Position numbers and translations under genes: made by a program
The notes under the pieces: generated by a model
Seen by the model: the letters and a program-made list of their open reading frames with translations, nothing else
Databases searched by the model: none
What the model was told of the DNA's origin: nothing
NCBI GenBank assembly: GCA_051362555.1
Contig: CM120640.1
Coordinates: 54,290,788 to 54,354,787 of the forward strand
Direction: 5' to 3'
Origin: Lingula anatina
Taxonomy: Eukaryota; Animalia; Brachiopoda
Length of the DNA stretch: 64,000 nucleotides
Shown: one piece after another, positions 85 through 11,634 of the stretch
Layout: each line of letters starts with the position of its first letter
How positions within the stretch are numbered: position 1 is the stretch's first letter

Positions 85-410
85 ATTGCTAGTTCTTGGA
101 TATCACGTGCGACCCAAACCTTCTCAAAGCTAGTCTTCAACAAAACTCTCTCTGCCATATGGTTAGATTATCAGGAAGATGTTGCAAGTGTTGCCATTAT
201 TTTGAGGTAAATTTATTCAATATATTTTAGCATCATAAGCATGACTGGTCTTAAAATTTGTTTACCAAGTAGCTGTTAATATTTTTAATATCAGTATCCA
301 AAGTGTTATGTAATTTATTTAATTTCAAACACTTTTGAATTGACAGTCAGGACGAATTTGGACAGAAGAAATCTGTTGCCCAGGTTTTGGTGGATGAGGA
401 GGTAGCAGTG
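85..410 (+). other. C-terminal part of an extended Tudor (Tudor-SN/OB) domain, gene 1
   Basis: Translation WISRATQTFSKLVFNKTLSAIWLDYQEDVASVAIILS-QDEFGQKKSVAQVLVDEEVAV fits the eTudor pattern W..eA...F..LV.nK.L.a ... svn..Lv.eglA. The Tudor core would lie upstream of the window. Confidence 0.7.
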
Positions 411-9400: not shown

Positions 9401-11634
9401 TACACTGGCAATCTAAGTGTGACCTTGAAATTGACCTTTGACCTACTTATAATCATGAACTGAACTCTGCTAATTTCTTTCTCTTTTAACTCCAAACCTG
9501 GCAGAGATAGGTCCATAGTTACTATTGAAGTTGAATAGGAAGTCATATACTGGAAATTTACTGTGACCTTGAAATTGACCTTTGACCTACCTTACAATGA
9601 ACTTAACTTTGATTGTACTATTTTAAGTTATATATATTTTTTGCGTATTTTGAAAATTCTTGTTGATTGCATTTTTACAGCTTGTCAAGCATAAGACTAG
9701 TGGCTGTGTCCCTTATTTTGCGTATGTGGGGGTCTATACGAATGCGCTTGCTCCAGCTGGTGGTACAATATTCGGAGGCGGTATCGCCTCTCTGATCCTC
9801 TAGTTCATAACTGCTTTATGTATCTTTTTCTGTCTCATAAAAGACCAAATGAATCATTCATCATTATACGCTATAGAATTCAGCTGCTGATGCTAGGTGC
9901 TTCTCACCATCAGTACATAACCAGTGCCAACCTAGTTAGGCACGATATATATCCAGCCTGACTTTCTTAAATTACACCTGAGTCTACTTTAATGGTACTT
10001 ATTAGACAGCTGATGGCTATGTTTTCCTTGCCCTCACCACTTAAAAGTAGTACTATGTAATTCTTTACAAAAAGAAAGCAGTGCCAGCTTGACTGGTGAA
10101 GATGTACTTGTGGAGGACCTATTTGATGAAGATGCAGGCAGTGATAAAGATATTAAAGGCCAGCCTGACCAAGACACGGGGGATGACCAGGAAGAGAGTG
10201 ATCAGTATAGAGAAGTGAAGACCATGCTGCATGAGTTACAGCTTGAAGATCTCTTAGAGAACTTTGAGGCAAATGGTATTAGGGTAAGAGTTACAGCATT
10301 CGAAGCCCAGTAATGTTATTCATAAGTGGTTTAGAAGTGCAAAGATGTACAGCACTTGTGATGATAGGGGGTTATGGAGTGTTTATCACGGTGCCTGTGT
10401 TTTAAAAGTGGGGTGCTAAATGTGAATGTATGTTTTTTTCTTTGATTGATAAATTCACTGAGGTTCAGACTTAAGTCCTCCTTGGAATGAAAATCTAGGT
10501 ATTGAACATGACTTTAATGCTTTGTATGTCTTATGTTTTTGCAGGATTCTATTTTGCACATTGACCTGGTTGATCTGAAGCCTTTGATGAAAGAATGTGG
10601 TTTCAAACCTGGATTCATTTTAGAAATTGGAAAATACTTGGAAAGAAAAGGTTTTTATCTTTGATCAATTTACTGAGATACAGTAACATATGTGCAGGAT
10701 GACATTACTTAAACACTGTAAAAAGAGTAATGAAGATTAAGTGAAAAACATAATTTGGATGAAAATTTTATTCTTTTCAGAAAAAGTGAATTTGTCGTGT
10801 GTGGCAGGTAGAGACTTGAAGGAGATTGGGGAAGGGCAGCCAAACATAACTGGAAAGATAAAGAAAGAGCCAAAAACAAAGGTTGTGACCAAGAAGAATA
10901 TCATTGCAAAATCTCCATTAAAAGATTTCAGAGGTGGGAAATCATTAATCACCCAGAAATTAGATGGTTGTGAAAAAGTGCAAAGTCCTGCTGAGTTGAC
11001 AGTTGGGCAGAAGCAGATTTCTGCGGATCAGGAGTCAAAGGAGGTTACGCTTGGGATGAAAAATGTTGCCAATTGGATAAGGAACACACCAGGTCATCAG
11101 GGACCCACTGATACTGAGAAAAAAAATCTTGATACTAGCTCAAATAGAAATACAGGTAACTGTGATTTGAAAACCGTGCCAAAATATGTGCCACCACACT
11201 TAAGGATAACAGAAAAAAACAAAAATAATACCTTGAAATCCAGTTCCCCTAGGGAAGAGAGGTCCATCTTAAATTCAGATAATGATGAAACTTACAATTT
11301 TTCCAAGAGTCTCACGGATACAGATGAAGCTGAATCCCAATGTAAAAAGGAGTCGTGGGAGATAAAACCAAAAGGTGTGTGGCAAGCCACTGGAGATTTA
11401 AGTATCCATAATGTATGCAATACAGAAAGTTGGCCTACTTTGGCTGATTCTAAAACAGTTGCCAAGCCTATAGGTCACAAATTTGTGGAATTTCCCAAAG
11501 TTATTCAAGCAGTGGAAGAGCCAGCTGCCAAAACCTCCTTTGGTCAGTTTGGTGCTCCACGAGCTTGCACACTTTGCAAAAGCCCCACTCATCAAACTTA
11601 CGATTGTCCAAACACAGACAGATTGTTTTTGTAG
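85..11634 (+). CDS. 5'-partial multi-exon gene: extended Tudor (C-terminal part) + MIF4G + SAM + CCHC zinc-knuckle protein (~894 aa visible)
   Basis: 18 phase-consistent exons: 85-206, 347-410, 592-622, 1007-1114, 1361-1435, 1869-1991 (GC donor), 2334-2523, 2855-2975, 3408-3477, 4033-4137, 4578-4642, 4864-4949, 5465-5531, 5756-5916, 6223-6350, 10075-10283, 10545-10650, 10781-11634 (TAG). Total 2685 nt, divisible by 3. Acceptors at 85, 2855 and 10075 are weak (AAG) and were chosen by phase. Confidence 0.85.
2855..6350 (+). other. MIF4G domain exons, gene 1
   Basis: Spliced translation KVVAKVTAENIEAKILEL...MEVVLEQCIEQ...KELVWKLQNEY...VLGEIY...CAFKVLGIAGPKMD...CLDLLLLRASKWG carries the MIF4G hallmarks: LNKLT.ENF-like start, FLGELY-like segment and the LDL..LR...W end (compare PAIP1/CTIF/MIF4GD). 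Confidence 0.8.
3498..3656. repeat. Compound (TG)n-(AG)n microsatellite in an intron of gene 1
   Basis: Long TG run with a few interruptions, directly followed by an AG run. Confidence 0.97.
6498..6545. repeat. 9-bp GC-rich tandem repeat (CGGCTCCTG/CGGCTCCGC) in the HINE 5' module
   Basis: Five 9-bp units, the first four alternating as an 18-bp dimer. Confidence 0.9.
7431..9610. repeat. 145/146-bp satellite inside the HINE, 13 monomers in two arrays (5 + 8)
   Basis: Anchor ATAGGTCC-like word at 7461, 7606, 7752, 7897, 8043, then 8488, 8634, 8780, 8926, 9071, 9217, 9362, 9507. The arrays are separated by a copy of the ~7152-7430 spacer at ~8179-8460, giving a 1027-bp higher-order period. Confidence 0.95.
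10211..10650 (+). other. SAM domain (two exons), gene 1
   Basis: EVKTMLHELQLEDLLENFEANGIR|DSILHIDLVDLKPLMKECGFKPGFILEIGKYLERK fits the SAM pattern V..wL..l.L..y...F..n.I....L.....DL...G...G....i. Confidence 0.7.
11566..11607 (+). other. CCHC zinc knuckle, gene 1 C-terminus
   Basis: CTLCKSPTHQTYDC is exactly C-x2-C-x4-H-x4-C, 8 residues before the stop codon. Confidence 0.85.

What the first reader, a model, noticed from the sequence alone, without database searches (positions are those of the whole stretch)
85..11634. Tudor-MIF4G-SAM-CCHC protein: a domain combination I do not recognise, plausibly a germline/RNP translational regulator
Seen: one phase-consistent spliced ORF joins an eTudor C-terminal half, a PAIP1/CTIF/SLIP1-type MIF4G, a SAM domain and a terminal CX2CX4HX4C knuckle. 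Established: eTudors read methylated arginines on PIWI/Sm proteins, MIF4G domains dock eIF4A/DDX-type helicases, and some SAM domains (Smaug/Vts1, ZCCHC14) and CCHC knuckles bind RNA. Inference: I know no named vertebrate or fly protein with all four modules. It could be a lineage-specific scaffold coupling the piRNA/nuage machinery to translation control. Automated annotation would probably label it only 'TDRD1-like' or 'uncharacterised'.
Basis: partly seen in the sequence, partly recalled or inferred. Interest (0 to 1): 0.85.

Follow-up and report, generated by a model that had tools for sequence, protein, structure and literature searches.

The report
Tudor–MIF4G–SAM–knuckle scaffold in a brachiopod
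A spliced, expressed brachiopod gene joins a germline-type Tudor domain to a likely MIF4G domain, a likely SAM domain, a zinc-knuckle motif and a short motif typical of translation-initiation proteins, and it likely acts as an adaptor for mRNA–protein granules rather than as a reader of methylated PIWI proteins, because its Tudor pocket has lost most of its key residues.

Summary
The gene is real. An 18-exon chain (85-11634, +) gives a 906-aa open frame. RNA reads show 13 of its 17 joints. It equals residues 135-1040 of Lingula anatina LOC106159549 at 98.0% with no indels, a protein annotated as uncharacterised.

Domains: the extended Tudor is firm (Pfam E 8.5e-21). The MIF4G is likely: several weak tests agree, none is significant. 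The SAM is plausible (Pfam E 0.006, below cut-off). The CCHC pattern is exact.

Only 1 of 4 methyl-arginine cage aromatics survives. The eIF4A-docking Asn appears to be Ala. The SAM region is acidic. One feature is new: a YxPPxLR motif (11185-11205) of the DDX3/eIF2A/eIF3g/NOM1/TDRD3 class.

Best reading (0.5): a non-catalytic mRNP adaptor that likely holds or regulates mRNAs at translation initiation through methylation-independent contacts. A germline role is untested. I found no orthologue and no paper on the architecture, but the searches were insensitive. Verdict: new variant of a known kind, interest 0.5.

The parts
85..11634 (+). Coding span in the window of the LOC106159549-type gene (18 exons, residues 135-1040 of the 1040-aa protein); the 5' exons lie upstream of the window
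85..206 (+). Exon 1 in window (res 135-175), C-terminal SN-like part of the extended Tudor domain
   Evidence: joint 206>347 in 4 of 4 runs and upstream loose ends; alignment to TDRD1
347..410 (+). Exon 2 (res 175-196), end of the extended Tudor domain
   Evidence: joints
592..622 (+). Exon 3 (res 197-207), linker
   Evidence: joints 410>592 and 622>1007
1007..1114 (+). Exon 4 (res 207-243), low-complexity linker
1361..1435 (+). Exon 5 (res 243-268), linker
1869..1991 (+). Exon 6 (res 268-309), linker; followed by a GC-AG intron
   Evidence: joint listed in 3 of 4 runs
2334..2523 (+). Exon 7 (res 309-372), linker
2855..2984 (+). Exon 8 (res 372-415); the first helix of the MIF4G-like domain starts at about 2916
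   Evidence: joint 2523>2855; helix prediction
3408..3477 (+). Exon 9 (res 416-439), MIF4G-like helices 1-2, includes Ala418; its two flanking joints were not listed in the reads
   Evidence: matches RefSeq model; low read depth
4006..4137 (+). Exon 10 (res 439-483), MIF4G-like
   Evidence: joint 4137>4578
4578..4642 (+). Exon 11 (res 483-504), MIF4G-like
4864..4949 (+). Exon 12 (res 505-533), MIF4G-like
5465..5531 (+). Exon 13 (res 533-555), MIF4G-like
   Evidence: same skip length; aligner placed the joint 2 nt to the left
5756..5916 (+). Exon 14 (res 556-609), MIF4G-like
6223..6350 (+). Exon 15 (res 609-652), last MIF4G-like helix (to about 6292) and start of the acidic linker
   Evidence: joints 5916>6223 and 6350>10075
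10075..10283 (+). Exon 16 (res 652-721), acidic linker and first half of the SAM-like domain (from about 10197)
   Evidence: (loose ends)
10545..10650 (+). Exon 17 (res 722-757), second half of the SAM-like domain
   Evidence: RefSeq match; read depth; Pfam SAM_2 E 0.006
10781..11634 (+). Exon 18 coding part (res 757-1040): long predicted-disordered basic tail, motif, knuckle, stop
11185..11205 (+). YVPPHLR (res 892-898), matching the YxPPx[ILMVA][KR] motif of DDX3X, eIF2A, eIF3g, NOM1 and TDRD3
   Evidence: 33 of 20000 shuffles of the protein give a match
11566..11607 (+). CX2CX4HX4C zinc-knuckle pattern (res 1019-1032)
   Evidence: 5 of 20000 shuffles

Best explanation
The gene encodes a 1040-residue protein with no recognised enzyme domain that likely works as a cytoplasmic mRNA-protein (mRNP) adaptor, using methylation-independent contacts rather than methyl-arginine reading. 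Proposed steps: (1) The basic disordered tail with the single CCHC knuckle would hold RNA or an RNA-bound partner (pattern shown, binding inferred). (2) The YxPPxLR motif would tether it to the initiation machinery (eIF4F/40S), as the same motif does in DDX3X (motif shown, function inferred). (3) The MIF4G-like domain would dock a helicase or short peptide partners in the way of SLIP1/CTIF/CNOT1-type domains, probably without stimulating eIF4A canonically (fold likely, partner inferred). (4) The cage-less eTudor would bind a granule or piRNA-pathway protein through a non-canonical surface, as in Vreteno or Tejas (cage loss shown in the RefSeq sequence, partner inferred). (5) The acidic SAM-like domain would add protein-protein valency (fold plausible, role inferred). 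The net effect would be storage or repression of selected mRNAs in granules, most likely in germ or stem cells (untested).
For: One open frame; 13 of 17 joints seen in reads; the RefSeq model has the same chain. eTudor E 8.5e-21 with 1 of 4 cage aromatics and no Asn. A Ser for the first Phe blocks sDMA binding in Tud10 (PMC4152741, passages). Cage-less eTudors bind partners through other surfaces (PMC12526068, passages). MIF4G: Atlas feature hits at 0.91-0.93 to MIF4G and PAIP1 clusters, top hit 0.94 to a DUF7627 cluster; DAP5 MIF4G ranks first by Foldseek on both models (E 0.035 and 0.013); ten predicted helices of MIF4G length. In the human proteome the motif's significant hits were 8 proteins, mostly translation-related, including a Tudor protein and a MIF4G protein (PMC3510515 section 21). 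Mutating it in DDX3X reduces co-purification of RPS11 and eIF4E/G/A (PMC11251518, passages). Single T3 Tudor proteins are almost all piRNA-pathway factors (PMC12147562).
Confidence: 0.5

Rival explanations
1. An eIF4G/DAP5/PAIP1-like translational activator: the MIF4G binds and stimulates eIF4A (or Vasa/DDX3), the motif recruits eIF4F, and the Tudor localises this activity to germ granules.
For: The top Foldseek matches are DAP5 and eIF4G middle domains. MIF4G domains stimulate DEAD-box helicases (PMC5458760, passage). The YxPPxLR motif is present.
Against: VIA-align begins the match at DAP5 residue 78 = residue 410 in both models. If ungapped, DAP5 N86 faces Ala418, and N86A abolishes eIF4A binding in DAP5 (PMC4402527, passages). 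No canonical YxxxxL-phi 4E-binding motif was found. The register rests on weak models.
Confidence: 0.17
2. One reading: a canonical methyl-arginine reader that binds sDMA on PIWI or Sm proteins and couples them to translation control.
For: A clear extended (T3-type) Tudor whose closest solved relatives are TDRD1, Tudor-SN, TDRKH and Tudor.
Against: Three of four cage aromatics and the Asn are replaced (Ser70, Lys77, His95, Thr100). The pocket needs four aromatics plus Asn.
Confidence: 0.08
3. The middle domain is a generic HEAT-like solenoid, or a MIF4G of another pathway (RNA decay, export, ribosome biogenesis). The protein is then a recently shuffled, fast-evolving lineage orphan with no germline translation role.
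For: VIA-align ranks unrelated helical proteins first. No orthologue was found. Orphan Tudor architectures are common: 12 unnamed orthogroups with 178 proteins, and 279 unassigned proteins, in a 111-species survey (PMC12147562 section 5). NOM1, which has both the motif and a MIF4G, is nucleolar.
Against: Atlas and Foldseek independently put MIF4G first. The motif is unlikely by chance. Read variants lean synonymous (13 of 29 vs 20% expected; weak, not corrected for transition bias).
Confidence: 0.2
4. A gene-model artefact: a Tudor gene and a MIF4G-SAM-knuckle gene are adjacent and have been joined wrongly.
For: Four of 17 joints were not seen. Runs X1 and X3 show unexplained + strand depth inside intron 9 (3656-3870), and X3 has no depth on exon 9. 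Short reads do not prove one transcript.
Against: Seven consecutive read joints link the Tudor exons to exon 8, which already encodes the first helix of the MIF4G-like domain. Six more link exon 10 to the SAM exon. The two central gaps fall inside one predicted domain and are phase-consistent, and the RefSeq protein has the same chain without indels.
Confidence: 0.05

Closest known systems
Lingula anatina LOC106159549 (XP_013391347.1 and three further accessions)
   Same: The same gene: 98.0% identical over 906 aa, same exon chain.
   Different: Annotated only as uncharacterised, with PF00567 as its only listed domain; 18 substitutions.
Cage-less eTudor adaptors with a helicase-binding module: Tejas/TDRD5, Tapas/TDRD7 (eLOTUS), Vreteno (RRM)
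   Same: An extended Tudor joined to a domain that can dock a DEAD-box helicase; Tejas and Vreteno eTudors lack an intact cage and use other surfaces.
   Different: The helicase-docking candidate here is MIF4G-like, not LOTUS or RRM; the Tudor is N-terminal; SAM-like domain, knuckle and YxPPxLR motif are added.
TDRD3
   Same: A single Tudor with a YxPPx-type motif, linked to stress granules and translation.
   Different: TDRD3 has a short T0 Tudor that binds methyl-arginine and a UBA domain, and no MIF4G; this protein has a T3 eTudor with a broken cage.
MIF4G adaptors: DAP5/eIF4G middle domain, PAIP1, MIF4GD/SLIP1, CTIF, NOM1
   Same: Likely MIF4G fold; NOM1 also carries the YxPPx motif.
   Different: None is known to carry a Tudor domain (own knowledge; for the Tudor side); only 13-18% structural-alignment identity; the eIF4A-contact Asn appears replaced.
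ZCCHC14/ZCCHC2 and Smaug/Vts1
   Same: SAM domain with a C-terminal CCHC knuckle (ZCCHC14 architecture recalled).
   Different: The SAM-like region here is acidic (net -5); those proteins have no Tudor or MIF4G (recalled).

Membership tests
Extended Tudor (T3) proteins | Tudor barrel with N-terminal strands and helix, embedded in an SN-like fold | tested here: met
   PF00567 profile positions 2-121 of 121, E 8.5e-21; TDRD1 eTudor over residues 21-197, E 1.6e-9
sDMA-reading eTudor (Tudor, TDRD1, Papi, SND1) | Cage of four aromatic residues plus Asn | tested here: not met
   Ser70, Lys77, His95, Tyr98, Thr100 face F, Y, Y, Y, N of 5m9n and 2wac; cage definition; assignment of the cage columns is from my own knowledge
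piRNA/nuage Tudor factors | Gonad-enriched expression, nuage localisation, PIWI-pathway partners | not testable with these tools
   RNA runs are coded and their tissues unknown; reads were present in all 6 runs laid
MIF4G domain | Pfam PF02854 or sequence match to a solved MIF4G | tested here: not met
   No PF02854 hit; 0 PDB sequence hits at E<=10 for residues 394-758
MIF4G domain | Five HEAT-like helical hairpins matching MIF4G structures | tested here: inconclusive
eIF4A-stimulating MIF4G (eIF4G/DAP5) | Helix-1 Asn required for eIF4A binding (DAP5 N86) | tested here: inconclusive
   Ala418 by the end-point register, assuming no gap; importance of N86
PAIP1/CTIF/SLIP1 subfamily | Closer to these than to the eIF4G/DAP5 middle domain | tested here: inconclusive
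   Atlas favours MIF4G-domain-containing and PAIP1 clusters; Foldseek favours DAP5; no tree was possible
SAM domain | Five-helix bundle and SAM profile match | tested here: inconclusive
   SAM_2 E 0.006, 17.2 bits vs cut-off 20.5; five helices predicted at pLDDT about 50 or below; the fold searches were dominated by the helical domain
Smaug/Vts1 RNA-binding SAM | Basic RNA-binding surface | tested here: inconclusive
   Net charge -5 over residues 693-757; no alignment to Smaug or Vts1 was available
CCHC zinc knuckle | CX2CX4HX4C spacing | tested here: met
   Residues 1019-1032, 5 of 20000 shuffles; Pfam knuckle models below cut-off, E 0.0011 and 0.014
YxPPx[ILMVA][KR] motif proteins | Pattern in a disordered region | tested here: met
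   Residues 892-898 in a region with no predicted structure; 33 of 20000 shuffles
YxPPx[ILMVA][KR] motif proteins | Motif conserved against its flanks in orthologues | not testable with these tools
   No orthologue was retrieved

The most novel reading that the evidence does not exclude
This is the first member of an unrecognised family of animal Tudor proteins, lost from flies and vertebrates, in which an eIF4G-type MIF4G domain takes the place of the LOTUS domain as the helicase-docking module. With the DDX3-type motif it wires germ granules directly to translation initiation, acting as a non-productive eIF4G mimic that parks mRNAs.
Probability: 0.22. Interest if true: 0.8.

Novelty: new variant of a known kind. 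Interest (0 to 1): 0.5.

Why it matters
How germ-granule Tudor scaffolds control translation is known mostly from flies and mice, through LOTUS-Vasa and 4E-binding repressors. A single chain with an eTudor, a MIF4G-like domain and a DDX3-type initiation motif would be a direct link of a kind not in the current Tudor catalogue. It would give a concrete probe for germline or stem-cell translation control in spiralians, and another case of a cage-less eTudor with an unknown partner. The weight is limited for now: it is one gene in one genus, two of four domains are below formal significance, and orphan Tudor architectures are common.

Tried and rejected
1. Candidate exon 830-861: broke the frame and is skipped by reads; rejected.

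2. Homologue searches returned only the Lingula protein: exon 14 against longer proteins (1 of 7 candidates); residues 395-760 (1 of 4265); residues 1-205 (1 of 332); HMMER over 1.84 billion representatives with the 53-aa exon only (1 hit); Atlas with the whole protein (no usable hit); metagenome contigs (0 of 46 pattern matches confirmed). These blanks are weak. One search did not return even ordinary eTudor proteins, and searches covered only proteins of 572-1820 aa.

3. Pfam on 10 single-exon frames gave only 2 weak hits. The PDB sequence search of the SAM stretch gave 8 hits, none a SAM. No SAM or Tudor entry appeared in any fold search, but those regions were modelled at low confidence. 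The viral fold library gave no match at E<=0.001; viral eIF4G/MIF4G entries appeared at ranks 5, 9, 10 and 40.

4. A two-copy prediction of the SAM stretch gave no answer (score 0.00, controls not folded); it is no evidence either way.

5. No RNA holder was listed in the run index; the runs laid were species-label additions.

6. FGxF and [FW]P[STA]L motifs in the linkers arise often by chance (1172 and 729 of 20000 shuffles) and were not used.

7. No whole genome was held, so paralogues and upstream exons could not be read.

8. Earlier findings: five of six look-ups were empty; one gave 8 unrelated notes on viral MIF4G or bacterial Tudor proteins.

9. Literature: searches listed no paper describing a Tudor+MIF4G protein. 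I judged this from listings plus passages of PMC12526068, PMC4793324, PMC5458760 and PMC12147562. The supplement of PMC12147562 could not be read and may list this protein among its unnamed orthogroups.

Full report
The observation. I rebuilt the exon chain from the sequence. A first 19-exon version broke frame. RNA reads skip the candidate exon at 830-861. One search lists 12 of the 14 introns in 1-6425 as joints, one of them GC-AG. One search adds the joint across the 3.7 kb intron (6350>10075, 21 reads in X1), so 13 of 17 joints are seen. The joints around exon 9 were not listed; depth is low there, next to a masked microsatellite. The last two joints were not among the 15 rows shown, which was swamped by a repeat. 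Stranded runs indicate + strand RNA. Expression is roughly 2-5 RPKM in the four runs; their tissues are unknown.

Identity. Exon 14 retrieved one protein, Lingula anatina LOC106159549, 1040 aa, named uncharacterised, with PF00567 only. The window's chain equals its residues 135-1040, with 18 substitutions and no indel. The annotation pipeline had therefore already built this gene. What is new is the reading of its other modules. Exonic read variants were synonymous in 13 of 29 cases against 20% expected (p = 0.002). This is not corrected for transition bias, and only 3 exonic rows were shown, so it is weak support for constraint.

Tudor. Pfam TUDOR covers residues 7-131 at E 8.5e-21. The best solved relatives are eTudors of TDRD1 and Tudor-SN. 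In those alignments the cage columns hold Ser70, Lys77, His95, Tyr98 and Thr100, so one aromatic of four remains and the Asn is gone (column assignment from my own knowledge). The pocket needs four aromatics and an Asn, and a Ser for the first Phe blocks binding in Tud10 (PMC4152741, passages). Cage-less eTudors in Vreteno, Tejas and Krimper bind partners through other surfaces (PMC12526068, passages). These residues lie upstream of the window and come from the RefSeq sequence.

SAM and knuckle. Residues 693-757 match Pfam SAM_2 at E 0.006, below cut-off, and are predicted as five short helices; I put SAM at about 0.7. The region has net charge -5. SAM domains can oligomerise or bind RNA, the latter through basic residues (PMC11063897, passages), so a protein-protein role is the likelier one. 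The CX2CX4HX4C pattern at residues 1019-1032 arose in 5 of 20000 shuffles.

The disordered tail contains YVPPHLR at 11185-11205. It matches YxPPx[ILMVA][KR], whose significant human instances were eIF2A, DDX3X, DDX3Y, eIF3g, NOM1, TDRD3, CDV3 and ZC2HC1A (PMC3510515, section 21 read whole). The same seven letters are the conserved Ded1 motif (PMC11917139, passage). The pattern arose in 33 of 20000 shuffles; a stricter, post-hoc form in 0 of 20000. In DDX3X it was mapped as an eIF4E site (PMC9642913, passage). Later work found no direct eIF4E binding but loss of RPS11 and eIF4F co-purification on mutation (PMC11251518, passages). This is the best independent support for a translation link.

Mechanism. 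The protein has no recognised enzyme domain, and each module looks like a docking surface. I commit, at 0.5, to a cytoplasmic mRNP adaptor. The tail and knuckle would hold RNA, the motif would tether it to initiation complexes, the MIF4G-like domain would dock a helicase or peptide partner without canonical eIF4A activation, the cage-less eTudor would bind a granule protein independently of methylation, and the SAM-like domain would add valency. The likely outcome is storage or repression of mRNAs. The gene, the patterns and the cage loss are shown. All binding steps and the germline setting are inferred. The germline setting rests on T3 Tudor proteins being almost all piRNA-pathway factors (PMC12147562). 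Rivals: activator (0.17), orphan or other pathway (0.2), canonical sDMA reader (0.08), fused gene model (0.05).

Comparison and novelty. Table 1 of PMC12147562 (introduction part 1 of 2 and section 5 read; supplement not readable) lists no Tudor protein with MIF4G or SAM. Six paper searches listed no description of the combination. The same survey counts 12 unnamed orthogroups and 279 unassigned Tudor proteins, so unusual Tudor architectures are not rare, and this one may be hidden among them. No orthologue was retrieved, but those searches were too insensitive to show lineage restriction. The protein works like Tejas/Vreteno-type scaffolds in principle and is not a member of any named Tudor orthology group that I could test. 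Verdict: real, a new variant of a known kind, interest 0.5; 0.8 if it proves to be a conserved family that links granules to initiation (probability about 0.22).

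Noticed in passing
window 6436-9805: A multicopy non-autonomous element in intron 15 with HINE/Helentron anatomy: 14-bp inverted arms (6436-6449 and 9756-9769), a 5' hairpin, a 3' hairpin at 9775-9790 and a central 146-bp array of about 15 copies (7434-9590). Reads pile up with loose ends at both borders; the layout fits the oyster elements in PMC7492417 (passages). It is spliced out cleanly.
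   Followed up: partly
window 3656-3870: Unexplained + strand read depth (about 2.4) inside intron 9 in runs X1 and X3. Candidate microexons with good splice signals lie at 3683-3689 (7 nt, would shift frame) and 3877-3882 (6 nt, in frame). RefSeq names the protein as isoform X1 or X2, so another isoform may exist.
   Followed up: partly
window 1992-2333: A GC-AG intron supported by reads in 3 of 4 runs.
   Followed up: yes
window 11635-12600: Read depth continues past the stop to the end of the stretch laid; the first AATAAA is at 12581, suggesting a 3' UTR of about 1 kb.
   Followed up: partly
window 59333-59866 (-): Exon of an SLC12 cation-chloride cotransporter gene (PF03522, E 8.3e-15).
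   Followed up: partly
window 48045-49169, 33373-34002 and 18439-18867 (-): Large open frames on the minus strand that look like exons of other genes; no Pfam match at E<=0.01.
   Followed up: partly
runs X7 and X9: Reads of these runs differ more from the window (few at 99% or above) than those of X1-X4, suggesting a divergent population or cryptic species under the same label.
   Followed up: no
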